From an uncultured Gammaproteobacteria bacterium (GTDB taxonomy: Bacteria > Patescibacteriota > Microgenomatia > Woykebacterales > RBG-16-39-9b): a stretch of DNA of 64,000 bases. The stretch covers positions 100,340 to 164,339 of the forward strand of contig CAYIWY010000001.1 of NCBI GenBank assembly GCA_964367355.1, read 5' to 3'. A model generated the notes under the pieces. It saw only the letters and a list, made by a program, of their open reading frames with translations. It ran no database searches and was not told the DNA's origin. Positions 9,620-64,000 of this stretch are shown piece after piece. How positions within the stretch are numbered: position 1 is the first letter of the stretch; each line of letters begins with the position of its first letter. The position numbers and the translations under genes are program-made.

Positions 9620-10258
9620 ATGGGACAGAAAGTTAATCCAATAGCCTTTCGGCTTTCGTTAAATAAAGATTGGTCAAGCAAATGGTTTGCTGAAAAAGGT
9701 CGTTATAAAGAACTTTTGGCGATGGATATTAAAATTCGGGAGTTTGTTATGAACAAGCTAAAACCTGCTGGTGTTAGTCGATTGGTAATTGAGCGATCAA
9801 TAAATAAAATTAACGTTATTATCCATGTTTCCAGACCAGGTATGGTTATTGGAAGATCTGGAGCTGGAATTGAGGAAATAAGAAAAGAGCTAGAAAAAAT
9901 GGTTGGTCAAAAAATTTCTGTTAACGTTGAAGAAATCAAAAGACCGGATTTAAATGCTTATCTTGTAGCTCGAGGAATTGCCGACCAAATTGAAAGACGA
10001 ATGCCAGTAAAGAGACTTATGATTCAGTCGTGTGATCGAGTAATGCGTTCAGGGGCACGCGGTGTAAAGATTATTTGTTCCGGAAGATTAGGCGGGTCCG
10101 AAATAGCCCGATATGAAAAACGATCTACTGGAAGTATTCCGCTGCATACTCTGAGAGCTGATATTGATTACGCAGCAGTTCCAGCAAAAACTTTGACAGC
10201 CGGTATTACCGGTGTAAAGGTTTGGATTTACAAGCCAGCAGAAAAGGAAGGTAATTAA
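9620..10258 (+). CDS. rpsC: 30S ribosomal protein S3. The likely start is ATG 9620 (MGQKVNP).
   Basis: [14 protein letters not shown] domain. Confidence 0.93.
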
Positions 10259-10299
10259 AGGAATATGGCGGTCGCTTCGCGAGCCGCATAATAAGAATT

Positions 10300-10713
10300 A
10301 TGTTGCAACCTAAACGAGTAAAATTTCGTAGGCAGTTTCGGGGCTCTAGAGATGGGGTTGCTACTCGTGGTGCTAATATCGAGTTCGGAGATTTTGGATT
10401 AAAGACAATGGAATCTGGTTGGGTTACGGCTCGTCAAATCGAAGCGGCCCGTCGAGCAATGACACATCACACAAAACGTGGTGGGCGTATTTGGATTAGA
10501 ATTTTTCCTGATAAACCAGTAACCAGAAAACCACTGGAAACACGAATGGGATCTGGAAAAGGTGCAGTTGACCATTATGTTGCCGTCGTAAAACCAGGGA
10601 CTATTTTGTTTGAAATGGGTGGTATCGAGAAAAGCGTTGCTCAAGAGGCAATGCGTTTGGCAGGAAGAAAAATTGCTCTTAATTTAAGATTTATTGATAA
10701 AAACGAAATTTAG
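10300..10713 (+). CDS. rplP: 50S ribosomal protein L16
   Basis: [12 protein letters not shown] ... Confidence 0.95.
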
Positions 10714-10753
10714 AATTATATGCCGCTAAAGCGTCATATTTTAGAAGACTAAA

Positions 10754-10954
10754 ATGAAGAAAATAGATTTACAAGGAAAAAATATTGAAGAACTAAGAAA
10801 AGATCTCAAAGACGAGCAGAAAGCTTTATTTGATCTTAAGATTGAAAACGCTTTGGGGAAATTGAAAAACGGTAAAAGTATTGGTTTTAACAAAAGACAA
10901 ATAGCTAGGCTAAAAACCGAAATTACAAACAAGGAGTTAATTAATGCGAGGTAA
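10754..10954 (+). CDS. rpmC: 50S ribosomal protein L29
   Basis: Position and size (66 aa); coiled-coil. Confidence 0.88.
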   Translation: MKKIDLQGKNIEELRKDLKDEQKALFDLKIENALGKLKNGKSIGFNKRQIARLKTEITNKELINAR

Positions 10955-11177
10955 AGTGGTTAGTACAAAAATGAATAAAACAGTAATTGTAGAAGTGGAA
11001 CGATTAGTTGTTCACCCGATCTACAAAAAAAGAGTTAAAAAAACCAATCGTTTCGCCGCACACAACGAGGTTTTAGTTAAAGTTGGTGATACTGTTGAAA
11101 TTGCAGAGACTAAGCCATATTCAAAAACTAAGAAGCATAAAGTTGTGGCGGTAATTGATACAAGGAACAAAAAATGA
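10944..11177 (+). CDS. rpsQ: 30S ribosomal protein S17
   Basis: GKVVSTKMNKTVIVEVER ... Confidence 0.93.
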   Translation: MRGKVVSTKMNKTVIVEVERLVVHPIYKKRVKKTNRFAAHNEVLVKVGDTVEIAETKPYSKTKKHKVVAVIDTRNKK

Positions 11178-11542
11178 TTCAAAATAGAGCAATGATAAAT
11201 GTAGCAGATAATAGTGGTGCAAAAATCTTACAGATGATAGGGCAACCAGGTCGAAGTCGTCAAAGGTGGGCAATTTTAGGTGAAGTGGTAACTTGTGTTG
11301 TCAAAAAAGCCGATCCAAATGGGACAGTGAAAGACGCTGAAATTGTAAAAGCAGTTTTGGTGAGAACCAGAAAAGAGAATAGACGAGTCGATGGCTCTTA
11401 TGTACGTTTTGATGATAATGCTGCCGTTATAATCGATAAAGATGGTAATCCAAAAGGAACACGTATTTTTGGACCAATTGCCAGGGAAATTCGAGACCGA
11501 GGTTTCTTAAAGATTGTTTCTTTAGCTCCGGAGGTAGTCTAA
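11174..11542 (+). CDS. rplN: 50S ribosomal protein L14
   Basis: [17 protein letters not shown]. Confidence 0.95.
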
Positions 11543-11544
11543 AA

Positions 11545-11850
11545 ATGAAGCTTAAAATTGGTGATGAAGTCTTGGTTGTTTCCGGACGCGAAAAAGGAAA
11601 AAAAGGAAAAATCGAGAAAATAATACCAGATCTAAACAAGGTTGTGGTTACGGGAATAAATCTTTACAAAAAAAATAAGAAAGCCTCAGGTAGTAATCAA
11701 AAGGCAGGAATTATTGACATTATTAAACCTCTTCCTGTAGCAAACGTAATGTTTCTTTGCCCAAAGTGCAAACTGTCAGCCCGACTTGGGTTTACGGTTA
11801 AAAATAACGAAAAAAGTAGAGTTTGTAAGAAATGTGATCAGATAGTTTAG
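11545..11850 (+). CDS. rplX: 50S ribosomal protein L24 with a C-terminal CxxC...CxxC motif
   Basis: KOW domain KIGDEVLVVSGREKGKKGKI; C-terminus CPKC ... CKKC. Confidence 0.92.
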   Translation: MKLKIGDEVLVVSGREKGKKGKIEKIIPDLNKVVVTGINLYKKNKKASGSNQKAGIIDIIKPLPVANVMFLCPKCKLSARLGFTVKNNEKSRVCKKCDQIV

Positions 11851-11895
11851 AGCGGAATAAAATATCCCGCTAAAGCGTGATATAAATAATAATTT

Positions 11896-12441
11896 ATGAA
11901 AGTCTTGGAAAAATACGAAAGCAAAGTAAAAGAAAACCTAAGCAAAAACTTTTCAATAAGCAATATTTTTGCATTGCCAAAAATTGACAAAGTAGTTTTA
12001 AACGTTGGTTTTGGCAAATCAAGTTCTGATGATAAAGCTATAGAGCAAATAGCCAGTGATTTAAACAAAATAACTGGCCAAAAACCATCAGTTCGCAAAG
12101 CACGAAAAGCAATAGCGGCCTTTAAGTTAAGAGCCGGCCAACCAATCGGTGCTCAGGTTACTTTACGAAAAAAGAAAATGTACGACTTTTTGGATAAACT
12201 AACGGCAATAGTTTTACCAAGAGTTCGTGATTTTCGCGGCGTTTCCGAAAAATCCTTTGATGGTAGAGGCAACTACACACTTGGGTTTCGGGAAATTAAT
12301 GTCTTTCCTGAAATTGAGTACACAAAGAACGATAAGCAAAATGGGGTGGAAATAACAATAGTAACTAGCGCAAAAAATGATGAAATAGCTAAAGCATTGT
12401 TGGAAGGAATTGGTATTCCTTTCCGAAAGGCACAAGAATAA
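11896..12441 (+). CDS. rplE: 50S ribosomal protein L5
   Basis: L5 signature. Confidence 0.93.
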
Positions 12442-53210: not shown

Positions 53211-53261
53211 TAATTACAATTATACCCTGAATTTTAACTTCTGTCAGTCTGACCAAAAGAG

Positions 53262-53290
53262 TTGAAATTTACGCTGAAATGTGCTAAAAT
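53262..53290 (+). promoter_or_regulatory. Sigma70-type promoter TTGAAA-17 nt-TAAAAT driving RNase P RNA
   Basis: The spacing is exact. The predicted transcription start lies 7-8 nt downstream, at the start of P1. Confidence 0.7.
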
Positions 53291-53297
53291 GATTAGC

Positions 53298-53693
53298 GTT
53301 CGAAGGTAGAAGGATGAATACTACATTTTGCGTAAAGCTTCGTGTAGAGGAAAGTCCAGACACCATAAAGCAAAGTGGGCCGTGTAAGCGGTCAGCTGAA
53401 AGGCCTCGTGATCATTAAATTTACTAGAAATTTAATGATACAGAAGATGAATTAACATCTTTTGAGAGCAACAGAGACGAGTCTTGCTAGCTAGTATTTT
53501 TAGCAAGAATGAAACGGGCAATCCGCCTTGGTGCAACCTCCGACTGGTACGTTTGTAGCCCGCTTGGTGAGTACCGAAGACGAGGGCAGTCCGGTAATAC
53601 CGGACAGGAGTGACCAATAGATCACGCTTAGATAGATTTTCATCAGTTCCGACTTTTCGGAATGAACAGAATCTGGCTTACTCTCTACCTTTG
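53298..53693 (+). ncRNA. rnpB: RNase P RNA (bacterial type)
   Basis: Conserved P4 strands GAGGAAAGTCCAGAC and ACAGAATCTGGCTTA. P1 pairs aaggtaga with tctacctt. Confidence 0.85.
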
Positions 53694-53702
53694 AACATCA
53701 GA

Positions 53703-53737
53703 AAACTCAAGCTCGTATGGTTTGAGTTTTTTGTTGA
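53703..53737 (+). terminator. Intrinsic terminator after rnpB
   Basis: actcaagctcgtatggtttgagttttttg. Confidence 0.65.
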
Positions 53738-53769
53738 CAATTTTTGGAACTTAAGATTACAATTAGAAC

Positions 53770-54999: not shown

Positions 55000-56052
55000 A
55001 TGCTTGCTAAAATATATTCGGGTTCATTATTTGGATTGGAGGCTTTGCCAATCACAGTTGAGGTTGATATTGCTTCTCAGGGTTTACCCTCATTTACTAT
55101 AGTGGGTTTGCCTGATAAGGCAGTCGAAGAGTCGAAAGAAAGGGTTCGGGCGGCTTTGAAAAACAGCGGTGCTGATATACCGGCTAAACGGATAACTGTC
55201 AACCTTGCTCCGGCTGATTTTCCTAAAGAAGGACCTGCATTTGATCTACCAATTGCAGTTGGCATTTTACTGGCTTCGGGACAACTCGAAGCTGATCTTT
55301 CAAAAAGCCTAATTTTTGGAGAGCTCTCACTCGATGGTTCAATCTATCCGACAAAAGGAGCTTTGATTTTGGCAACTATGGCGAAAGCACAAGGTTTTTC
55401 TGATCTGCTTATTTCCAAGGGTAACAGTATTGAAGCAAGTGTAGTCTTAGGATTAAATATTTTTCCAGCTAAAAATATAAAAGAGGTTTTTGATCATCTT
55501 TCAAAAATTGAACTTCTTAAAGCAATGGCTCCAGTTGAGTTTAATTTCGAGGAAGAGGATTTAGAGGATTTTGATATGAAAGAAGTAAAGGGTCAGGAAC
55601 AAGCTAAACGAGCCTTAGAGATTGCGGCAGCGGGTGGGCATAATGTATTGCTCCGCGGTTCTCCTGGGGCAGGCAAGACTATGCTTGCGCGTTCTTTTGC
55701 CTCAATTCTACCTAAACTAACTTTTGAAGAAGCCGTTGAGGTTACCAAAATCTATTCCATATTAGGTGGAGTTAAGGAAGGTTTGGTCCAGAAGCGAGCT
55801 TTCAGATCTCCTCATCACACCGCTAGTAGTGTTGGAATTATTGGTGGTGGGACAAATCCAAAACCCGGAGAGATTTCTATGGCCCATCGAGGTGTGCTCT
55901 TTCTTGACGAATTCCCCGAATTTCCCCGAGCTGTACTTGAAGCTCTTCGCCAACCGCTTGAAGATGGTTATGTTGTTGTCTCGAGAGCAAGTAGTAGTGC
56001 TAAATTTCCGGCTAAATTTACATTAATTGCTGCTGCCAATCCTTGTCCTTAA
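55000..56052 (+). pseudogene. comM: comM/yifB (Mg-chelatase-like AAA+ ATPase), 5' part only. It is truncated after ...AANPCP, at the CPCG zinc motif, by an insertion.
   Basis: N-terminal ChlI domain, Walker A GSPGAGKT, Walker B VLFLDEF. The ORF stops exactly where CPCGY is expected. The C-terminal portion of about 150 aa is absent. Confidence 0.7.
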
Positions 56053-56112
56053 GGGTATACATTAGGACTGATTAAGTTTCTCCAACGGTTTTTAGCCGAT
56101 TACAGCGGATTG

Positions 56113-56409
56113 TTATTTTGGTTTATCAAATTGGCGTAACCATTTCCATGCTTTTTCGGGGAGCCAACCATTTCTATTTTTGTAATTAACTTCCATTAAC
56201 AAGAATCGCTGTTGCGGCCATTTTTTAACGATCTCATTTTGAATTGTCTCAAGTGTCCATTGAGATTTGAGTAGGTAGGTTCCAGGCAAATAATGCCACC
56301 AATTTTGAATTTTTGGGCTTTTTGAAATTATTTCGTGAAGTCCGACTTCATCGGACGTAGTGGGATCAAATGACAAAGAGTAAATTTTATAAAAGAGGTT
56401 AACTTGCAT
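56113..56409 (-). CDS. Hypothetical protein (element)
   Basis: ORF. Confidence 0.4.
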   Translation of the reverse strand: MQVNLFYKIYSLSFDPTTSDEVGLHEIISKSPKIQNWWHYLPGTYLLKSQWTLETIQNEIVKKWPQQRFLLMEVNYKNRNGWLPEKAWKWLRQFDKPK

Positions 56410-56809
56410 CGCTTACCTCCTTTATTTTACCTTCTTCTCTTGCTTCAATACTAGGTTGGGAAGTCTCAGAAAATTTAGGCAACGAAAACACTTCAAGTTC
56501 GGTAAGTTCGTTTCCTTTTTCGCCTAAACCCTTTGCTGATAGCTTCATTCCAAGTTTTTGAACACTCTCGCTTGATAGCATATGGGGTGTATTTTTTGCG
56601 AAATGATCGTGTATGTAAACTGTGTAACATAGTACGAGAGTGGAAGGAGCGAAAACAAGCAAATTTTTTGATAATAAAAAGACAATTAGAGAAGCAAGAA
56701 TAACTAGAAAATTTAGAATTAGAATTGGAGTAAAGACACTTGCTCTTTTCGAAACAACTTCTCCAACTGCTCTTGTAATCGATTCTGAAGGATTCTCTAA
56801 CATTGACAC
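56399..56809 (-). CDS. Hypothetical membrane protein (element)
   Basis: ORF with a TM helix. Confidence 0.4.
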   Translation of the reverse strand: MSMLENPSESITRAVGEVVSKRASVFTPILILNFLVILASLIVFLLSKNLLVFAPSTLVLCYTVYIHDHFAKNTPHMLSSESVQKLGMKLSAKGLGEKGNELTELEVFSLPKFSETSQPSIEAREEGKIKEVSDAS

Positions 56810-56842
56810 ATATATTACTTGATTTGCTAGTATAATTAAAGT

Positions 56843-57241
56843 GTGTCAAACAAAAGTATTACATTTCAGGATAAAGAAAAAATAAAGCAGGCCTTGGCGA
56901 AGGGGAAAACTTATCGTGAGGCGTTGTTAGATACTTCTGTGGCTAGCACTAGAACTGTTGGAAAAATAGCAAAAGAGTCGGTTACAGAAATAAAGCAGCT
57001 GAGGGAAACCTACCTTCAGTTGATTGAGAAAAACAAAGCCGGAATGAATGACCGCGCTAAGCTTTGGGCTGATATGACACGTGCTACTAAGCTGATAAAC
57101 GATAAAGAGACCCCCGATTGGTTGAATCGTCGCGAGGCTTTGGTGTATATCGATCAGATAGCTGGACTTTCCAAAGACAATTTGGGTATAAATCTGATTC
57201 AAATTAATTTATCACCAGAAATTCAAGAGCTTGCGCAGTAA
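56843..57241 (+). CDS. Hypothetical protein, possible HTH regulator (GTG start)
   Basis: ORF with TATAAT immediately upstream; helical. Confidence 0.4.
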   Translation: MSNKSITFQDKEKIKQALAKGKTYREALLDTSVASTRTVGKIAKESVTEIKQLRETYLQLIEKNKAGMNDRAKLWADMTRATKLINDKETPDWLNRREALVYIDQIAGLSKDNLGINLIQINLSPEIQELAQ

Positions 57242-57310
57242 GGTGGGGGGTACCCTCGAATCGGAGTCCCACCTAGGAAAAAGAATACTTAGTCAGTAGT
57301 CGCAGTTTTT

Positions 57311-57673
57311 CTAGTTTTTTAAACCATGTGAAAGAAGACAAGATTTATAACTTTGCTCTATTTTTTCTCGGTAAACTGATCCTGGCCACCACCAACCCCA
57401 CGACCCACCAAGTTGGTAGCTGTTATATCTTTCAGGATCATCAGTCCAAACGGCCCAGATTTTTCCTTTTTCCCAGTTTTGGTTTTCCTCACCATACTTT
57501 AGATTAATAAATTCATTAGAGTTGCTTTCCCATTTTTTTAATGTAGTTGCGTAACATTGTTTTCTGATTTCGGTTGGTCTCCATTGAAACCAATAAAACC
57601 AACCACTAATAATAGCGACAATCAAAAGTCCAAATAATACTTTCCATGAACTATTTTTTATTAGATTTTTCAT
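57311..57673 (-). CDS. Small single-pass membrane protein, paralog 3
   Basis: N-terminal TM with a GWFYWFQW motif and paired Cys. Confidence 0.5.
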   Translation of the reverse strand: MKNLIKNSSWKVLFGLLIVAIISGWFYWFQWRPTEIRKQCYATTLKKWESNSNEFINLKYGEENQNWEKGKIWAVWTDDPERYNSYQLGGSWGWWWPGSVYREKIEQSYKSCLLSHGLKN

Positions 57674-58017
57674 TAATAATAAGCTCCATTATTTTCCATA
57701 CAATTTTCCATACTCACTTCATAAAATCCACTAAAATCTTTGTCTGTGAAATTCCCTATTTTTACTGCTTCTTTTGCAAAATTGTTAGCTTTAATTGAAC
57801 AACCTTTTTTTATTTGAGCAGGTTTATAATCAACGAAATACCAGGAACCCGCTATTAAAATAATGACTACGAATAAAAATAGTAACTTCGTCGAGGTTTT
57901 AACTGGTTCCTCACTATTTCCAGTTCTAGATTTATGTAATATTTCCCCAACTCTTTGCCAATCTGACAAAGTATAAGAATCTGTAAAATGGGGGTTATTT
58001 TTGTTTATTTTTTTCAT
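57673..58017 (-). CDS. Small single-pass membrane protein, paralog 2
   Basis: TM with GSWYFVDY and paired Cys. Confidence 0.5.
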   Translation of the reverse strand: MKKINKNNPHFTDSYTLSDWQRVGEILHKSRTGNSEEPVKTSTKLLFLFVVIILIAGSWYFVDYKPAQIKKGCSIKANNFAKEAVKIGNFTDKDFSGFYEVSMENCMENNGAYY

Positions 58018-58328
58018 TTATCTAACCCTTTTTCTCTTAGACCTTTTTGAATACAATTACTGTATTCATTGTCGTAGTTTTCGCCGTAGGATTGGAATGG
58101 GAGACCTACTTTTATTTTTGCAATGTTGACATCAATTAAAAGAGTTGCAGTTTTAATGGCTTTAGCATTACAATCGGTTACTAATTTGCGGCGAAATTCT
58201 ACCTCTTCTTTTTCAACACGAAGTTTTTCCTGGTTGGCTTGGTAAGGTAAGTATTGAAACCAATAGAACCAACCACCAATTAAGGCTACAACTAAAACTG
58301 CAAGAATTTTAGGAATTAGTTTTTTCAT
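58014..58328 (-). CDS. Small single-pass membrane protein, paralog 1
   Basis: TM with GGWFYWFQY and paired Cys. Confidence 0.5.
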   Translation of the reverse strand: MKKLIPKILAVLVVALIGGWFYWFQYLPYQANQEKLRVEKEEVEFRRKLVTDCNAKAIKTATLLIDVNIAKIKVGLPFQSYGENYDNEYSNCIQKGLREKGLDK

Positions 58329-59335
58329 TTTTTTAATTTTGATAGTAGCTTGAATTTGAAGGCTAGAAAACCGGAAACTGCTAAAAGTCCAATTAAGGTT
58401 AAACCAAGAAGAGGCTTTGAAAAAGATCCTTTAATTAAGTTTTTACTGTCCTTGTTTTCTTTTGCGCTAGATTGAGTAGCTGATTTGGTGGCCTTTTTAG
58501 TTTCCGCGAGACCTAGATTTTCAGAAGCATTAGAATTCTGATTGTCGGCACTTTCACCCAAAGATTGTCCGTTTTGGTTACTTGGACTTGGTTGATTTTG
58601 ATTTGAACTTGTGTTTGGTGAGTTTGGGTTGGTTGTAGTGTTGTTTTGCTGCAGAATCGCAGTAAAGAATAACTCCTTCGCAGAACTATTTCCAGCCATG
58701 TCATACGCTTGTGCAACAACTCTGTTCAAACCACTTGTTAAACTAATATTAGTTGAAAATGCCCCATCTGAACCAATAGTTACACCTTGACCGTTGAGTG
58801 TAAGTACACTGATCGGTGATGTAGGATCAGTAACTTTCCCAGTTACGGTCACACTGTTTTGATTAAGTGTTGAATTTTCCCCCGGCGAAGTAAAAGTAAT
58901 ACTAGGAGAATTGGGATCATATTTAACCACATGAGTATATATTGTACTGTTTGGTTGAACTGTCCCGCTGCAGGGTGGGTATCCAGGATAGGTAATGTGA
59001 TGGGTGTACTGAGAATAATAAATTGTGTGGGTACCCACCCCAACGGGGGTACCATCACTTGGACCACTTCTAGCTATATTTATGCTACCAGCATCACAAA
59101 CTCCAGTATGGATATTCCATTCACCTGAGTCGACTTTGTACATAGATGTTGCACCAGATTCTTCGGTTAAACTAAATCTTGGTTGTGTTTTGTAGTAACC
59201 ATTACTACCATCAGGCGTATTCGGTTTAATTGTTAATTGAACTACTCCCACAGCTAAAGCAACTGATTGGTTTATTAGACTTATAAAAGTTAATAAGCTT
59301 GCCAGAGCGATGATTAATTTGAATCTCAGTTTCAT
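58325..59335 (-). CDS. Secreted surface protein: signal peptide, Ig-like domain(s), an N/S/Q-rich stalk and a C-terminal TM anchor
   Basis: Signal MKLRFKLIIALASLLTFISLINQSVALA. Ig-like segment PISVLTLNGQGVTIGSDGAFS. C-terminal hydrophobic anchor followed by KK. Confidence 0.6.
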   Translation of the reverse strand: MKLRFKLIIALASLLTFISLINQSVALAVGVVQLTIKPNTPDGSNGYYKTQPRFSLTEESGATSMYKVDSGEWNIHTGVCDAGSINIARSGPSDGTPVGVGTHTIYYSQYTHHITYPGYPPCSGTVQPNSTIYTHVVKYDPNSPSITFTSPGENSTLNQNSVTVTGKVTDPTSPISVLTLNGQGVTIGSDGAFSTNISLTSGLNRVVAQAYDMAGNSSAKELFFTAILQQNNTTTNPNSPNTSSNQNQPSPSNQNGQSLGESADNQNSNASENLGLAETKKATKSATQSSAKENKDSKNLIKGSFSKPLLGLTLIGLLAVSGFLAFKFKLLSKLKK

Positions 59336-59404
59336 TTCGCCAATTATACACTATTAATACAACTATAAGACTTATTATCGGGTTTACTGTATAATTTAGT
59401 TACT

Positions 59405-59911
59405 ATGAATATGGAAATTAATAACCCAGACCTTGTTCAAAATCTGCTGAAAAAAAGAATTGTTAAATTGTTAGGAAAGGATAACGATCCAAGATCTAAA
59501 GAGGACTTGTTAATTGATGAGGACAAGCTAAAAACTGAGATTGCTGATTACAAAAAAGAAAACCCACCACAGCCGCAATTAGTACTTTACCCACCTTTTA
59601 AGGGTAGAATTAAAGCCATTTTTACTTCTAGTGAAGGTTCCAGCAAAGAAGGAATACTTACTTATGATAGTAATGAGGTTCGCCTATTGAGCAAACTTGA
59701 CAAAAATAAAAATAAACCTTTTACAGCGTCCGAGCTGGGTGATTTTTTAAAGAACCCAAGAAACGGAGTAGATTTTACAAAACCAAAAAGAAGAGGACTC
59801 GACACCAAGAATTCGCTTATAAAGAAGTTTGGACCAGACATCATCAAAACTACCCCTAAAGGATTTGTTTTTAATACTAATACACGCTTCGTTAGTAAAC
59901 TTCCTCACTAA
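59405..59911 (+). CDS. Hypothetical protein (element)
   Basis: ORF with TATAAT upstream. Confidence 0.4.
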   Translation: MNMEINNPDLVQNLLKKRIVKLLGKDNDPRSKEDLLIDEDKLKTEIADYKKENPPQPQLVLYPPFKGRIKAIFTSSEGSSKEGILTYDSNEVRLLSKLDKNKNKPFTASELGDFLKNPRNGVDFTKPKRRGLDTKNSLIKKFGPDIIKTTPKGFVFNTNTRFVSKLPH

Positions 59912-60006
59912 AGTTAAATTTTCCTCAAACTAACCAGAGTTTTAACTTAAACTTCCTCAAAAAAGTGTTTTTCAACCTCCGGGTATAACTCGATAATTGA
60001 TTTATC

Positions 60007-60240
60007 ATGAAAAACGAATTTAGAACAAAGGATTTATATGAAGCTGCCTATTTAGTTTCTGCCAATCTCCCCTTGCTAAAACTTGAAAAAGCAGATACCT
60101 ACTTTGTGTTTGTTTTTTCCGAAAAGTCCAAATGCGAAGCGTATTCCTCAAATTATTGGTCTGGCTTTGCTGTGGGCAAGATAAAAGATTTTGCTGACGC
60201 TTTGAAAATCCTGAAGGAAAGGTTATTCGCAAAAAAGTAA
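60007..60240 (+). CDS. Small phage-associated-type protein (DUF5659-like)
   Basis: DLYEAAYLVSANLPLLKLEKADTYFVFVF pattern. Confidence 0.4.
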   Translation: MKNEFRTKDLYEAAYLVSANLPLLKLEKADTYFVFVFSEKSKCEAYSSNYWSGFAVGKIKDFADALKILKERLFAKK

Positions 60241-60248
60241 AAGTTTAA

Positions 60249-60851
60249 ATGAACATGGAAATTAACGATTGGGTAAGAAAAGGTAAAACAATGATTTTTT
60301 GGCAATATCCGCCAAAGTTTCCTAGTGATGAGGAAATTGAAACTTTTGCTGATGGGCTAAAAGAAACGATCCCAGAAAAGCTAAATGTACTGTACGAACG
60401 TAAAGACTACCTAACGGATCGCTGCAAAAAACTTTTCTCAACTGCAAATAATCTTAGAGGAAAGAAAAAAATCTACTACCGTTCTTGGGCGATTACTGAA
60501 TATGAAGAAGTCTTGGTTATTGATAAGTGGCTTCTTTACTGGGTAACAATAAATTCAAAGTTAAACAGGAAAAAAATAATTGAGCCTAATTATAAATTCA
60601 CTCAAGCTGAGATTGAACGAGCTAAACAGAACACGTATGAATGGAACTTTCCAGGTAACTTAGATAATCGTTCCAAGAAACGTAAGGTTGGTCTTTGTCC
60701 GTTTCACGAAGAGAAGACACCTTCCTTTGTTATTTATTTAGAAACTAACAGCGCTCACTGCTTTGGTTGCCTTTGGTCAGGCGATGTTATTGCCTTTTAC
60801 CAAAAACTACACAATGTTAGCTTTGTTGAGGCAGTAAGGAGATTACTTTAA
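60249..60851 (+). CDS. Protein with a C-terminal CHC2 (DnaG-type) primase zinc finger
   Basis: CPFHEEKTPSFVIY ... HCFGCLWSGDVIAFYQ. Confidence 0.65.
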   Translation: MNMEINDWVRKGKTMIFWQYPPKFPSDEEIETFADGLKETIPEKLNVLYERKDYLTDRCKKLFSTANNLRGKKKIYYRSWAITEYEEVLVIDKWLLYWVTINSKLNRKKIIEPNYKFTQAEIERAKQNTYEWNFPGNLDNRSKKRKVGLCPFHEEKTPSFVIYLETNSAHCFGCLWSGDVIAFYQKLHNVSFVEAVRRLL

Positions 60852-62236
60852 TGGATATTCTGGAACGAGCAGAAAAAGAATTGGAAGCATCTTACCAAAA
60901 AGATAAGAAAAAGGAGAAACCAAACTATACAGCTAATTTTAACGGTCTTGTTGATCTGGTTGAAGATCAGGAAAAGACAAAGTTTCTTACCTTCAAGGGC
61001 GAGATCTTATCTGAAAAAGAAATTGATGGGAAAGTGTACCTACCACCACCAAAGGTTGACTGGCTTCTTCCAAATGGTAAAAAAGTTCTTGAACTTGTGA
61101 AACTACATGATCTGGACACTTCGGACACAATGGACTCTATTCCAGGGTGTACTTATTGTCAGAAAACTCTTCTTCCTAAAATCCTAGCCTATTTTAGAGA
61201 CATCAGTCAGCCGCCCACGGGTTATCATTACTTGTTATTAGTTCTAGCGGCTTTTCATTCTTTCCTAATAGAATATTTCAACTATTCTCCTATCCTTTTT
61301 CTGGTGGCTACCAAAGGACGCGGCAAAACTCCAACCTTAAAAGCTCTAGCTTATATTTCAAGAAGAGGAATTCTCACAGAGACTTTTAGAGAGGCAAACT
61401 TAATACGTTGGGCAAGTGATTATCAAGCGTCTTTATTTCTTGATGTTAGAGACTTTCCAAAAAAGGTAGAGCGTGCTGCAGCTGAGGATTTAATTTATGG
61501 TCGAGCTGAACGTGGAGTTACAAGTTCTCGAGTCCTTTTTCCAGAAAAGGGTGCTTATCTGGACATGGTTACTTTTTCTTCTTTTGGGGTAACAGGAGCA
61601 ACAAGCAATGTGATGGTTGATGCTATTACTGAAGCCCGCTGCATTGTTTTTAATATGCCTTTTTCCAAAAAGGTATATGACATAGAACCTTCCAGAGAAC
61701 TAGGTTTGCCTATAAAAGAAGAACTAACAGCTTTTCGAATGGCTCACTTTAAAAAAGCATTTCTAAACGTTTATAAAAAAAGACCTGGCAAATTAGAAAA
61801 CTACTTACGTGGCTACCACCAAATGGTTCGAACACATTTTCCAACCTATGAAAAATCTTTTCTAAAGCTTAAGGAGGTTATTTACGAAAATAAACATGAG
61901 GAAGCAGAGAACACTTTGGAGGCCAAGTTACTTCTCGCTGTTATAAAACTAATAGAAAAAGTTGAGGACGGTGGCTTTTTAGCAACTGAGTTGGTGGCTA
62001 ACACAGTTAATGAAGGAATTTCAGAAAAATTTGCTCTAAGTACTGACAGAGTTGGTCGTGAGTTGAAGGGAATGGGCTTTAAATCAATTAAAAATTCTTC
62101 TGGGGATAAACGTGGGATTTTTTATAACGTAGATTTAATTGAATCTATAAAAGAACAGTATGGTTTAGTAGAAGCACCCCAAGAAAAAGTGTCAGATATG
62201 TCTGGAGTGCCAGAAAAATCTAAAGGGGAATTATAG
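60851..62236 (+). CDS. Putative replication (primase/helicase-associated) protein, 461 aa
   Basis: It directly follows the zinc-finger ORF with overlapping stop and start. It has a P-loop-like KGRGKT. The family assignment is uncertain. Confidence 0.4.
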   Translation: MDILERAEKELEASYQKDKKKEKPNYTANFNGLVDLVEDQEKTKFLTFKGEILSEKEIDGKVYLPPPKVDWLLPNGKKVLELVKLHDLDTSDTMDSIPGCTYCQKTLLPKILAYFRDISQPPTGYHYLLLVLAAFHSFLIEYFNYSPILFLVATKGRGKTPTLKALAYISRRGILTETFREANLIRWASDYQASLFLDVRDFPKKVERAAAEDLIYGRAERGVTSSRVLFPEKGAYLDMVTFSSFGVTGATSNVMVDAITEARCIVFNMPFSKKVYDIEPSRELGLPIKEELTAFRMAHFKKAFLNVYKKRPGKLENYLRGYHQMVRTHFPTYEKSFLKLKEVIYENKHEEAENTLEAKLLLAVIKLIEKVEDGGFLATELVANTVNEGISEKFALSTDRVGRELKGMGFKSIKNSSGDKRGIFYNVDLIESIKEQYGLVEAPQEKVSDMSGVPEKSKGEL

Positions 62237-62398
62237 ATGCCTATTCCTTTAGATAAATTTGAAGAATGTACTTGTGGAATATGTACAAGCCAAGATATAT
62301 CCGATAATTTTGGTTTTATCGGTAAAAAGTATTTTACAAACCTTGCTTTAGCAGCTTTAGTAGTTAGCAAAAATGATTCTGAAAAATCTAAAAAGTAA
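62237..62398 (+). CDS. Small Cys-containing hypothetical protein
   Basis: ORF immediately after the previous stop. Confidence 0.25.
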   Translation: MPIPLDKFEECTCGICTSQDISDNFGFIGKKYFTNLALAALVVSKNDSEKSKK

Positions 62399-62433
62399 TA
62401 TTGCAAACTGTGTTATTTTAAAAAGACAACACC

Positions 62434-64000
62434 ATGTTACAAACAAATGGTTTAACTAATAACCAAATAACTACCCTCCCAAAAGCACTTTTCCGAGCAA
62501 AGCTTTATGCAAGAGTTTCAACTATTAGTCAAGCGGATGATAACAAATATTCTCTTGAAGAACAGGAAGACTGGGCTAGGAAGTTATGTCAGGAAAAGGA
62601 GTGGGAATTTGCAGGAGTTATCTCAGACACTTTAGTTGGAGATACTGAATATGAAAATAGGCCTGGAGGTACAAGTCTCCTTGAAGATGCAAAGCTTAAG
62701 CTGTTTAACCTAGTCCTTTTTTACCATAGTTCCAGAAACGCTAGAGAGACTTGGATAGGGATGAAAATGATCTCCGATCTTGGAAGGCTAGGTGTACAAA
62801 CTTACATTAAAAACGCTCCTATCGAACCGGTTCCTCAAGATAAGTTTATTTATGGAGCCAATATTGGCGCTGAATATGTTCAAGCCCTGTCGCTGATCGG
62901 CGACAAGCAAGAAAATTTTGCACGAAGCGAGAGAGTTACCTTTGGATTTAAAAATCTTGCACAGTTGGGAGTTTTAGTATTCGCGCCATACGGCTACAAA
63001 AAAATAAAGGAGTTTAAAAATATTAATGGCAAGGATAAAACTGTTTGGCGTTTTGAAGAAGACCCCGTTAAAACGGCGGTAGTAAGGCGAATTTTCAATA
63101 CCTACTTAAAAGGAGACAGTTTGAGAGGAGTAGCAAAAGGTTTAATCAAAGATAATACCCCCTCTCCCAGTGGAAAACTAGGTTTGGAAAGCTGGACTCC
63201 AGCTACAGTCAAAAATATTCTAAGCAATCCTGCATATATTGGTCAGGTTCGTTGGGGAAGAAAACTTGGAAGCAAATTTCGTCAGTTAAGAAGTGTCACT
63301 GGAAAGCAGAAAAGAGTACTAACAAATAAATTAGACTGGGTTATTTCTGATGGAAGTAATTTTTCAAGAATAATTGACAAAGCAACATTTATCAAAGTAC
63401 AAGAGAGGATTAAAAAAAGAGGAAAAATTGCTGGTACACAATTAGCTTCTAAGTCGTTGTTAACAGGTTTAGTTTATTGTAGCGACTGTAACAGAAGAGC
63501 GAACTGTAAGAGTAGAAAGATTAAGAGGCCAAACGGTGAAATTTACTATAAAAGTGATTTTATCGACCAAAGCTATTTTAGAGGTAATAGTTGTCGAAGG
63601 CACTTAATTGCCGCTGCAAAGCTTGAACATTTAGTTCTTGCCAAGCTCCAAGCCCGACTTTACGAGCTAAAGGAAACTGATATAGAAAAAGAGCTATCAT
63701 TTCAGGACCAAAAATCAGAGGACTTGATACAAAATTCGATGAGGCAAATAAATATTCAATTAAGAAGCTATAAAAGTAAACAGGATCGTCTGGTAAACGG
63801 TTACATTGAAGGATTCATTGGAGAGGAGGAGTATAAACAGCAAAAGGAAAAGTTAGCTTTGGAACAAACCTCACTTGACCAGGAAAAAACTGGTCTCCAA
63901 GGGTTACTTGAAGATCAAAGTAAAAAAATTAAGGCATTAGAAACTTTGAGGCAAGTATTAACTATGTTTTCCTCTGTTACGGATCCTCTAGTTAAAAAGG
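62434..64000 (+). CDS. Large serine recombinase (phage-type serine integrase); the C-terminus is beyond the window
   Basis: Resolvase catalytic motif LYARVSTISQ, a recombinase domain, a zinc-ribbon CSDCNRRANC ... C, and a long coiled coil. Confidence 0.85.
   Translation, partial: MLQTNGLTNNQITTLPKALFRAKLYARVSTISQADDNKYSLEEQEDWARKLCQEKEWEFAGVISDTLVGDTEYENRPGGTSLLEDAKLKLFNLVLFYHSSRNARETWIGMKMISDLGRLGVQTYIKNAPIEPVPQDKFIYGANIGAEYVQALSLIGDKQENFARSERVTFGFKNLAQLGVLVFAPYGYKKIKEFKNINGKDKTVWRFEEDPVKTAVVRRIFNTYLKGDSLRGVAKGLIKDNTPSPSGKLGLESWTPATVKNILSNPAYIGQVRWGRKLGSKFRQLRSVTGKQKRVLTNKLDWVISDGSNFSRIIDKATFIKVQERIKKRGKIAGTQLASKSLLTGLVYCSDCNRRANCKSRKIKRPNGEIYYKSDFIDQSYFRGNSCRRHLIAAAKLEHLVLAKLQARLYELKETDIEKELSFQDQKSEDLIQNSMRQINIQLRSYKSKQDRLVNGYIEGFIGEEEYKQQKEKLALEQTSLDQEKTGLQGLLEDQSKKIKALETLRQVLTMFSSVTDPLVKK

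What the first reader, a model, noticed from the sequence alone, without database searches (positions are those of the whole stretch)
55000..64000. comM (yifB) is split at its CPCG zinc motif by an integrative element carrying a large serine recombinase and a primase-like module
**Seen in sequence.**
- The comM-like ORF has the ChlI N-domain, Walker A/B and sensor motifs.
- It terminates at ...AANPCP-stop, exactly where full-length ComM proteins continue CPCGY into the zinc motif and the C-terminal lid and Mg-chelatase-C domain. About 150 aa of comM are missing.
- Immediately downstream lie genes unrelated to comM:
  - several small membrane proteins and an Ig-like surface protein on the minus strand;
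  - a CHC2 (DnaG-type) zinc-finger ORF, translationally coupled to a 461-aa putative replication protein;
  - a large serine recombinase at 62434 with Y.RVSTISQ, a zinc ribbon and a coiled coil, running off the window.

**Established knowledge.** comM is a recurrent integration hotspot for genomic islands in other bacteria. Large serine recombinases are integrases of phages, ICEs and SCC-like elements.

**Inference.** An integrative element of at least 8 kb sits in comM, with its right end and the comM 3' remainder beyond position 64000. This host looks like a CPR/Patescibacteria-type genome. Integrated elements with a separate primase zinc-finger ORF and a serine integrase are poorly described in such genomes.
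Basis: partly seen in the sequence, partly recalled or inferred. Interest (0 to 1): 0.72.

Follow-up and report, generated by a model that had tools for sequence, protein, structure and literature searches.

The report
Small integrative element splitting comM

Summary
The observation and the interpretation both hold. The comM ORF (55000-56052) stops at AANPCP*, missing 153 aa. An identical longer contig (L001) shows the missing part 8,061 bp downstream, just past the window end. A conspecific strain (L032) and a relative (L005) have an intact 503-aa comM with the same flanks. An 8,091-bp contig with a 30-nt terminal overlap (L003) is the excised circle.

The four junctions are reciprocal. They share only TCC, and the attP dyad centres on CC (56047-56048 at attL). 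That is the architecture of a large serine recombinase (LSR) site.

New points:
- attP overlaps the last codons of the LSR gene. The free LSR is 559 aa (…KPHP*). The integrated copy is a 712-aa in-frame LSR::ComM-C fusion.
- The same fusion occurs in about a dozen relatives at 46-60% identity in Woyke-, Woese- and Parcubacteria.
- More distant LSRs hit the same comM position in another orientation.
- The 461-aa protein has an SF3 helicase fold.
- Relatives carry repressor, excisionase-like, small-terminase and restriction-modification genes but no capsid genes.

This points to a satellite-like or plasmid-like element. LSR insertion into comM-family genes is already known (phage WO), so this is a new variant of a known kind.

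The parts
55000..56052 (+). comM' : 5' fragment of the host comM/yifB gene (350 aa), ending NPCP followed by a stop codon supplied by the element
   Evidence: Pfam ChlI plus Mg_chelatase 1-160/207. TIGR00368 1-349/499. Intact 503-aa versions in L032 and L005.
56046..56048 (+). attL core TCC. The probable crossover dinucleotide is CC at 56047-56048. The B arm lies to the left (in comM) and the P' arm to the right, 56049 to about 56076.
   Evidence: Comparison of attL, attR, attP and attB. The attP dyad is centred on CC: 15 of 28 symmetric positions against 5-11 for shifted centres.
56113..56409 (-). 98-aa ORF, unknown function; the leftmost gene of the element
   Evidence: ORF list. Weak match to phrog_1090 only. 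Lies next to the LSR gene end in the circular form L003.
56399..56809 (-). 136-aa membrane protein, unknown function
   Evidence: Hydrophobic segment at residues 29-59. Weak match to phrog_27377.
56843..57241 (+). 132-aa ORF, unknown function
   Evidence: No significant Pfam, PHROG or NCBIfam match. No match to a small-terminase (TerS) profile built from a relative.
57311..58328 (-). Three small single-pass membrane proteins (120, 114 and 104 aa). The 120- and 104-aa proteins are paralogues.
   Evidence: Hydrophobicity scan. BLAST cluster 'fam 8'.
58325..59335 (-). 336-aa secreted, membrane-anchored protein with an Ig-like domain (cargo)
   Evidence: Pfam Glucodextran_B E = 5e-18 and Big_7. 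N- and C-terminal hydrophobic segments. Weak match to NCBIfam CPR pilus PamR.
59405..59911 (+). 168-aa ORF, unknown function; first gene of the rightward operon
   Evidence: ORF list. No family match.
60007..60240 (+). DUF5659 protein (77 aa), a backbone gene shared with related elements
   Evidence: Pfam PF18903. Homologues at the same relative position in L007, L013, L014, L016 and L023.
60249..60851 (+). 200-aa protein with a C-terminal CHC2 (DnaG-type) zinc finger. No catalytic primase domain was detected.
   Evidence: PF01807 E = 1e-18 and primase PHROGs, zinc-finger part only. The N-terminal 140 aa have no match. The AF2 model was unusable.
60851..62236 (+). 461-aa SF3-type replicative helicase (Rep), translationally coupled to the zinc-finger ORF
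   Evidence: AF2 pLDDT 85.8. Foldseek matches to NrS-1 C-terminal helicase, ASFV PrimPol, PriRep1 and the SaPI5 primase-helicase. Walker A motif GRGKT read from the sequence. TAATG overlap.
62237..62398 (+). 53-aa protein of a family (core DNFxxIGKxNFxxLALSAL) that sits just upstream of the LSR, or of the HTH_17 gene preceding it, in nearly all clade-A relatives. Candidate directionality or regulatory factor.
   Evidence: phmmer hits in 9 related loci. Alignment A5.
62434..64000 (+). Large serine recombinase gene. The free form is 559 aa and would end at window-equivalent 64110. In this integrated copy the ORF continues in frame through attR (CC at 64108-64109) into the comM 3' part and ends at 64572, giving 712 aa.
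   Evidence: Pfam Resolvase, Recombinase and Zn_ribbon_recom. L001 712-aa ORF against L003 559-aa ORF.

Best explanation
An 8,061-bp integrative mobile element occupies window 56049 to 64109 (the last 109 nt lie beyond the window end). It alternates between a circular form and a chromosomal copy inside comM of a Woykebacteria-like CPR bacterium.

Mechanism:
- Its LSR recombines attP with attB at a CC dinucleotide in the Pro350 codon of comM (NPCP|CGY). attP is a dyad whose left arm forms the last codons of the LSR gene itself.
- Integration truncates ComM at residue 350 with a stop codon brought by the element. It separates the Walker A/B and sensor-1 part of the ATPase from the C-terminal 153 aa, which by my reading of the sequence carry the zinc motif, arginine finger and lid. 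The host's ComM helicase, which promotes recombination during natural transformation, is therefore most likely inactive while the element is in place.
- Excision restores comM exactly.
- Because the LSR stop codon lies just beyond the crossover, the integrated copy encodes a 712-aa LSR::ComM-C fusion instead of the 559-aa free enzyme.
- The zinc-finger protein and the SF3 helicase most likely replicate the excised circle.
- The left half of the element (four small membrane proteins and an Ig-like surface protein) is cargo.
- Judging from relatives, the lifestyle is that of a phage satellite or integrative plasmid, not a complete phage.

Shown: the junctions, the circle, the empty site and the family pattern.
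Inferred: catalysis by the LSR, loss of ComM function, episomal replication and the route of transfer.
For: - L001 is identical to the window over 13,150 bases and shows the comM 3' part after the LSR.
- Junction sequences: attL ...AATCCTTGTCC|TTAAGGG, attP ...AGCCACATCC|TTAAGGG, attR ...AGCCACATCC|GTGCGG. The deduced attB rebuilds NPCPCGY and a 503-aa ORF.
- The empty site is seen in L032 (ComM differs at 4 of 503 residues) and in L005.
- L003 is 8,091 bp with a 30-nt terminal overlap. It differs from the integrated copy at 1 of 8,061 positions.
- Contigs L034 and L035 end exactly 30 nt (k-1) from the start of TCC. This is expected if attL and attP coexist in one sample.
- The attP dyad is centred on CC. 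All four half-sites share CC at positions -6/-5.
- The LSR has the expected domains and the invariant R27, S29, T30 and Q33.
- The 461-aa protein has an SF3 helicase fold.
- Relatives carry HTH_3, HTH_17, TerS, AAA_25 helicase and restriction-modification genes, with no capsid or large terminase.
- A second free attP in the clade (L041) has the same layout.
Against: - No activity was measured.
- A head-to-tail tandem would also give a contig with a terminal overlap.
- Read depth was not available, so neither copy number nor the ratio of attP and attB to attL and attR is known.
- No directionality factor is identified in this element. It lacks the HTH_17 gene that most relatives have next to the LSR.
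- No catalytic primase domain was found.
- No packaging, conjugation or mobilisation gene was found in this element, so the transfer route is a guess from relatives.
- The role of ComM in CPR bacteria has not been tested.
Confidence: 0.85

Rival explanations
1. It is a true temperate virus. A small membrane-containing or otherwise non-tailed virus would have structural proteins (the Ig-like surface protein and the small membrane proteins) that current profiles do not recognise.
For: Five of the 13 element ORFs (the Ig-like protein and four small proteins) are membrane-anchored or secreted, and several others have no known function. The element excises and carries its own replication module.
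Against: No capsid, portal, terminase or packaging ATPase was found in Pfam or PHROGs. Searching IMG/VR with the LSR family found nothing. The membrane and Ig genes are not conserved in related elements, which carry other cargo instead.
Confidence: 0.08
2. It is a phage satellite (PICI-like). It would be excised and replicated on helper-phage infection and packaged in the helper's capsids.
For: Relatives sharing the DUF5659, helicase, p53 and LSR backbone carry Cro/CI-type repressors, HTH_17 excisionase-like genes and small terminase subunits without a large terminase or capsid genes. Some also carry restriction-modification systems. The helicase resembles the SaPI5 primase-helicase fold. The size of 8-10 kb fits.
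Against: The window's own element has no detectable TerS, repressor or excisionase. No helper phage is known.
Confidence: 0.35
3. The in-frame LSR::ComM-C fusion is functional, not incidental. The appended ComM lid domain would change recombinase directionality or tether the enzyme, making a built-in sensor of the integrated state.
For: All clade-A integrated copies examined are in-frame fusions reaching the natural comM stop, at LSR identities down to 40%. The free forms end one base after the crossover dinucleotide. In L014 the comM 5' part has decayed but the fusion ORF is intact. This element has no HTH_17 excisionase-like gene.
Against: The same P-arm DNA (…ATGTAAAGCCACATCC) is conserved in clade B, where it is non-coding. 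The 'KPHP' tail is therefore a by-product of the binding site, and the frame is frozen by the site itself. The comM 3' part is equally intact in the unfused clade B lysogens. From general knowledge, C-terminal extensions of serine integrases are usually tolerated.
Confidence: 0.15
4. comM is a naturally split or decayed gene in this lineage, and the intervening DNA is ordinary chromosome.
For: None beyond the truncated ORF itself.
Against: Intact comM with identical flanks exists in L032 and L005. The intervening DNA also exists as a circle. The junctions are exactly reciprocal.
Confidence: 0.01

Closest known systems
Gene-splitting elements integrated by large serine recombinases: Listeria phage A118 in comK, Bacillus SPbeta in spsM, skin in sigK
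   Same: An LSR inserts the element inside a host coding sequence at a short core. The gene is rebuilt exactly on excision. The att sites are short, with a 2-bp crossover and a dyad-symmetric attP.
   Different: This LSR is only 23-27% identical to phage LSRs. The element is 8 kb with no virion genes. The host is a CPR bacterium. attP overlaps the 3' end of the LSR gene, so integration makes an in-frame recombinase-host fusion.
Wolbachia phage WO, sr1WO group, integrating into the magnesium chelatase (YifB/ComM family) gene with an LSR (PMC9203015)
   Same: Same enzyme class and same target gene family. Gene halves flank the element.
   Different: WO is a full tailed phage of tens of kb in an alphaproteobacterium. 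Its recombinase is about 23% identical. I could not determine whether WO uses the same position in the gene, because the att sequence is not in the held text.
Acetoanaerobium phage ANDSL2_ph1 (PP197248.1)
   Same: It carries an LSR and an att region at the same comM codons (…MNPCP|C).
   Different: It is a complete 36-kb phage of a Firmicute. The phage itself carries a comM fragment (about aa 170-351). Its LSR is convergent with that fragment and 22% identical.
Phage-inducible chromosomal islands (SaPI / PICI satellites)
   Same: Size of 8-10 kb. Integrase plus a self-loading helicase replication module with a SaPI5-like fold. Relatives add a repressor, an excisionase-like gene, TerS and defence cargo.
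   Different: The integrase is a serine rather than a tyrosine recombinase. No TerS or repressor is detectable in the window's element. No helper phage is known.
AbaR-type islands and other mobile elements inserted in comM of Gram-negative bacteria (PMC4774983, PMC11441513, PMC12378983)
   Same: They disrupt comM. Their proposed benefit to the element is blocking transformation-based removal.
   Different: The insertion machinery differs. From my own knowledge, not checked here, AbaR islands use Tn7-like transposition and the others mostly tyrosine integrases.
Myxophage Mx8 intP/intX and fusellovirus SSV1 (attP inside the integrase gene)
   Same: Integration changes or splits the integrase coding sequence, so free and integrated states encode different proteins. 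This is from my own knowledge and was not checked in a paper here.
   Different: Those are tyrosine recombinases. Here the change is the addition of a folded 153-aa host domain to a serine recombinase.

Membership tests
Large serine recombinase (serine integrase) | N-terminal resolvase-type catalytic domain with the conserved R-x-S-T-x-x-Q serine motif | tested here: met
   PF00239 at residues 24-129. YARVSTISQ motif. R27, S29, T30 and Q33 are invariant in 16 relatives.
Large serine recombinase (serine integrase) | C-terminal recombinase domain, zinc ribbon and long helical (coiled-coil) insert | tested here: met
   PF07508 E = 2e-23 and PF13408 E = 2e-6. C349, C352, C387 and H390 are invariant. 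I read the region of about residues 400-520 as the coiled coil from the sequence; no coiled-coil prediction was run.
Large serine recombinase (serine integrase) | Short att sites: dyad-symmetric attP, a non-palindromic 2-bp crossover, and identity between attP and attB limited to the core | tested here: met
   Shared core is TCC only. The attP dyad is centred on CC (15/28 against 5-11). The element is not flanked by any direct repeat longer than the 3-nt core.
Large serine recombinase (serine integrase) | Catalyses attP x attB recombination; needs a directionality factor for attL x attR | not testable with these tools
   Only the products are seen in assemblies: integrated copy, circle and empty site.
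ComM / YifB AAA+ helicase (the interrupted gene) | ChlI-like N-domain, Mg_chelatase AAA+ core and Mg_chelatase_C lid in one ~500-aa protein | tested here: met
   The two fragments join into a 503-aa ORF. It is 99% identical to P0215 and 91% to P0001, which have all the domains.
Phage satellite (PICI-like) | Integrase, master repressor, excisionase and replication module, plus a gene that redirects helper packaging (such as TerS), without capsid genes | tested here: inconclusive
   In the window's element the integrase and helicase are present. No repressor, excisionase or TerS was found. Relatives have HTH_3, HTH_17 and TerS.
Phage satellite (PICI-like) | Induction and packaging by a helper phage | not testable with these tools
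   No helper phage is known. No member was found in IMG/VR.
Complete temperate phage | Capsid, portal, large terminase or equivalent virion genes | tested here: not met
   None found by Pfam or PHROGs in the window's element or in 119 ORFs of nine related loci.
Integrative conjugative or mobilisable element | Relaxase, coupling protein or type IV secretion genes | tested here: not met
   No such Pfam, PHROG or NCBIfam match in the element's ORFs that were scanned. An oriT was not searched for.
DnaG-type primase | Zinc finger together with a TOPRIM catalytic domain | tested here: not met
   Only the zinc finger matches, at residues 141-199. The N-terminal 140 aa have no match. The AF2 model had pLDDT 45.6 and was unusable.

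The most novel reading that the evidence does not exclude
The recombinase would exist in two state-specific forms by design. The circle makes a 559-aa integrase. The integrated copy makes a 712-aa integrase carrying the ComM lid domain. That appended host domain would act as a built-in directionality switch, or as a tether to the ComM N-fragment. The element would thereby 'know' whether it is integrated without a separate excision factor.
Probability: 0.12. Interest if true: 0.8.

Novelty: new variant of a known kind. Interest (0 to 1): 0.5.

Why it matters
It adds a defined, apparently active integrative replicon to the Candidate Phyla Radiation, a group whose mobile elements are little described and for which, to my knowledge, few genetic tools exist. 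My literature searches found no description of LSR elements in Patescibacteria.

The report gives an integrase, exact attP and attB sequences and a candidate replication module. Together these are the raw material for an integration or shuttle vector.

It shows that comM is a repeated target of mobile elements in CPR bacteria as well. At least three LSR lineages use it, and two different positions in the gene are hit. This extends the idea, developed in Gram-negative pathogens, that elements disable transformation to avoid being removed.

It also flags an annotation trap. The roughly 710-730-aa 'ComM' or 'recombinase' proteins in public CPR genomes are junction artefacts of integration. Each one marks a lysogen.

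Tried and rejected
- **L004 as a second element.** I first read L004 (comM ORF of 364 aa) as a different element at the same site. Alignment showed the sequence after the junction is the reverse complement of the comM 3' part plus the next gene. It is an inversion or a chimeric contig, not an element.
- **Exact look-ups.** The rebuilt 503-aa ComM and the 559-aa LSR are not in the collection. A sequence with four differences (P0215) was found through its cluster.
- **Small terminase.** No Pfam or PHROG hit in the window's element. BLASTP of the 132-aa ORF against a relative's TerS, and an HMM built from that TerS, found nothing.
- **Zinc-finger protein structure.** Predicted without an alignment; pLDDT 45.6, unusable.
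- **IMG/VR.** A scan with the LSR family found no relative.
- **Origin of replication.** The repeat search on the circle found no convincing iterons, only one weak 19-nt pair 52 nt apart.
- **Promoter and terminator scan.** Fewer sites than in shuffled sequence; uninformative.
- **Rfam.** Only a tRNA in 40000-64000.
- **Literature.** No paper on LSR elements in Patescibacteria. 'comM' together with 'large serine recombinase' gave nothing relevant.
- **Phage WO attB position.** The att sequence is not in the held text.
- **yifB case of PMC7192596.** No details in the held supplements.


Full report
**1. What is in the window**

The ORF at 55000-56052 (+) encodes 350 aa ending ...[11 protein letters not shown].
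- It has the ChlI N-domain.
- Its Mg_chelatase AAA+ match stops at profile position 160 of 207.
- It covers positions 1-349 of the 499-position YifB model TIGR00368.

- four small membrane proteins and a secreted, anchored Ig-like protein on the minus strand;
- a rightward block: a 168-aa ORF, DUF5659, a 200-aa CHC2 zinc-finger protein, a 461-aa protein overlapping it in TAATG, a 53-aa ORF, and an LSR gene from 62434 that runs off the window.

**2. The missing half of comM and the element's limits**

An exact-protein look-up with the 461-aa protein returned three useful contigs. L001 is a 40-kb contig identical to the last 13,150 bases of the window. In L001 the LSR ORF does not stop after 559 codons. 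It continues in frame into CGYFGDQVKACICLP...Mg_chelatase_C and ends at the natural comM stop, giving 712 aa.

Joining the two comM pieces gives a 503-aa ORF reading ...AANPCPCGYFGD....

L003 is an 8,091-bp contig from another sample of the same run series.
- It has a 30-nt terminal overlap, so it represents an 8,061-bp circle.
- In it the LSR is 559 aa (...LNVKPHP*) and is followed directly by the element's leftmost genes.
- The circle differs from the integrated copy at one base.

The four junctions are exactly reciprocal:

| Site | Sequence |
|---|---|
| attL | ...GCCAATCCTTGTCC\|TTAAGGGTATACATTAGG |
| attP | ...ATGTAAAGCCACATCC\|TTAAGGGTATACATTAGG |
| attR | ...ATGTAAAGCCACATCC\|GTGCGGTTATTTTGG |
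| attB (deduced) | ...GCCAATCCTTGTCC\|GTGCGG |

Only TCC is shared. attP is a dyad centred on CC, with 15 of 28 symmetric positions against 5-11 for centres shifted by up to 6 nt. It has TAATGTA at equal distance on both arms. All four half-sites have CC at positions -6/-5.

This is the layout of a serine-integrase site with a non-palindromic 2-bp crossover. In window coordinates the CC is 56047-56048 at attL and 64108-64109 at attR, so the element's right end lies 109 nt beyond the window.

**3. The empty site**

The rebuilt ComM finds full-length 503-aa relatives at 91% and 87% identity. Its 90% cluster also holds P0215, which differs at four residues.
- P0215 lies on L032. The flanks match L001 at 93-97.6% nucleotide identity, with the same genes on both sides and an uninterrupted comM.
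- L005, from GCA_025450795.1, shows the same for a more distant relative.

Two short contigs from further samples end exactly 30 nt (k-1) after the start of TCC. This is what a de Bruijn assembler produces when attL and attP are both present in a sample. It is indirect evidence that integrated and excised forms coexist.

**4. The host**

The nearest named ComM homologues are from Candidatus Woykebacteria, then other Microgenomates and Patescibacteria.

**5. The recombinase family and the fusion**

Homologues of the LSR fall into two groups.

*Clade A.* In one search these are 46-60% identical; L023 in the locus scans is 40%.
- Nearly all are ORFs of 698-729 aa that carry Resolvase, Recombinase, Mg_chelatase and Mg_chelatase_C domains.
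- They are therefore the same in-frame fusion, found in Woykebacteria, Woesebacteria, Parcubacteria and unnamed MAGs.
- Some are named 'Competence protein ComM' or 'recombinase family protein' by their sources.
- The alignment shows the LSR part always ending ...N-V-[KN]-P-[HCQY]-P, followed directly by CGY.
- A second free form (P0127 on L041) again ends KPHP, with a stop codon right after the Pro codon and a symmetric P' arm.
- In all three attL junctions available, the P' arm starts TAAGG. The element therefore supplies the stop for both the free LSR and the truncated ComM.

*Clade B and L009.* These are 35-43% identical and 520-540 aa.
- Clade B uses the same comM position, but the LSR gene points away from the comM 3' part.
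- In L009 the LSR has the same orientation as in clade A but is not fused.

The P-arm DNA (…ATGTAAAGCCACATCC and variants) is conserved in all of these loci, whether or not it is coding. I conclude that the 'KPHP' tail and the preserved reading frame follow from the binding site lying inside the gene's last codons. They need not reflect selection on the fusion protein.

The comM 3' part is equally intact in unfused lysogens. This is explained by recent or reversible integration. A function for the fusion is not excluded: in L014 the comM 5' part has decayed while the fusion ORF is intact. I rate it unlikely.

The family is small. Of 1.84 billion representatives, only 17 score E <= 1e-30. The best phage LSRs, including phage WO, are 23-27% identical.

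**6. The rest of the element**

*Replication module.*
- The 461-aa protein has about 50 relatives, none with a Pfam domain.
- An AF2 model from 33 sequences (pLDDT 85.8, pTM 0.81) matches SF3-type helicase modules: NrS-1 C-terminal region, ASFV PrimPol, PriRep1 and the SaPI5 primase-helicase. Foldseek probability is 1.0, with E from 1e-5 to about 2e-3.
- It has a GRGKT Walker A motif.
- The zinc-finger protein has no detectable catalytic primase domain.

*Backbone shared with relatives.*
- Across clade-A loci the conserved backbone is DUF5659, a helicase (this SF3 type or an AAA_25 type), the 53-aa protein family, often an HTH_17 excisionase-like gene, and the LSR.

*Cargo.*
- Everything else varies. 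Across 119 ORFs from nine loci there are Cro/CI repressors, small terminase subunits, type I and cytosine-methylase restriction-modification genes and macro domains.
- There is no capsid, portal or large terminase.
- None of the family is in IMG/VR.
- The window's element has none of the repressor, excisionase or TerS genes.

The family therefore looks like phage satellites or integrative plasmids. For this member the transfer route is open.

**7. Comparison with what is known**

- Mobile elements inserted in comM are well documented in Gram-negative bacteria. They are interpreted as a way to block transformation-based removal (PMC4774983, PMC11441513, PMC12378983).
- LSR-mediated insertion into a YifB-family 'magnesium chelatase' gene is known for Wolbachia phage WO sr1WO (PMC9203015).
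- The Firmicute phage ANDSL2_ph1 carries an LSR next to a comM fragment that ends at the same NPCP|C codons.
- Another CPR element (L038) has a different LSR and a comM remnant that starts about 35 codons earlier.

Insertion of an LSR element into comM is therefore not new. The new points are:
- the CPR host;
- the small replicon-like element;
- the exact att sites;
- the family-wide arrangement in which attP overlaps the 3' end of the recombinase gene, so that lysogens encode a recombinase-ComM chimera.

My searches found no description of this.

**8. Verdict**

I class it as a new variant of a known kind, of moderate interest. Its main value is practical: a defined integrase, att pair and replicon for a group with few genetic tools, and a correction for misannotated fusion proteins. 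It also extends the theme of comM as a target of mobile elements into the CPR. The idea that the fusion is a state switch is unproven and, on balance, unlikely.

Noticed in passing
L004:3880-4568 (Logan SRR27710314): In a 91%-identical relative, the comM 5' part is joined to the reverse complement of the comM 3' part plus the start of the next (VTT/DedA) gene. The join lies within about 10 nt of the same NPCP position, at an imperfect microhomology. It is either a real inversion at the att site or a chimeric contig.
   Followed up: partly
L013:11672-18256 (Woesebacteria GW2011_GWB1_38_8 contig): A second, partial comM 3' copy (about aa 36-153, 79% nucleotide identity to the first) lies 5.8 kb downstream of the LSR::comM-C fusion. 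A two-component system and a HlyD/MacB-type ABC exporter sit between the copies. This suggests an older insertion or a captured gene end.
   Followed up: partly
L014:858-1181 and 10016-12148: In this lysogen the comM 5' fragment has lost residues 38-278, yet the 710-aa LSR::comM-C ORF is intact.
   Followed up: no
L037:2926-5086 (Acetoanaerobium phage ANDSL2_ph1, PP197248.1): A complete 36-kb Firmicute phage carries a comM fragment (about aa 170-351, ending AAMNPCPCV*). The fragment overlaps the 3' end of a convergent 546-aa LSR gene. The same comM codons therefore appear to be this phage's att region.
   Followed up: partly
L038:2884-5769 (ENA ERZ23498356): Another CPR element has a homologue of the 461-aa helicase and a different LSR (561 aa, ending FYKTD*). 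It lies next to a comM remnant that begins at about residue 316 (QPxEDG). This is a second target position within comM.
   Followed up: partly
L040:9372-14784 (GCA_964583105.1): The zinc-finger plus SF3-helicase pair also occurs with a shorter (389-aa) serine recombinase in a locus with no comM fragment among its called genes. The replication module is therefore shared between different integrative elements.
   Followed up: no
window 53211-53769: A stretch of about 560 nt with no convincing ORF lies between the Na/Ca-exchanger gene and the DUF4352 gene. The same gap appears in the gene lists of L005 and L032. There is no Rfam match.
   Followed up: partly
public records behind P0122, P0123 and P0126 (L006, L007, L013): The 717-718-aa junction ORFs are deposited as 'recombinase family protein', 'Competence protein ComM' or 'hypothetical protein'. 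Each one marks an integrated element rather than a native gene.
   Followed up: yes
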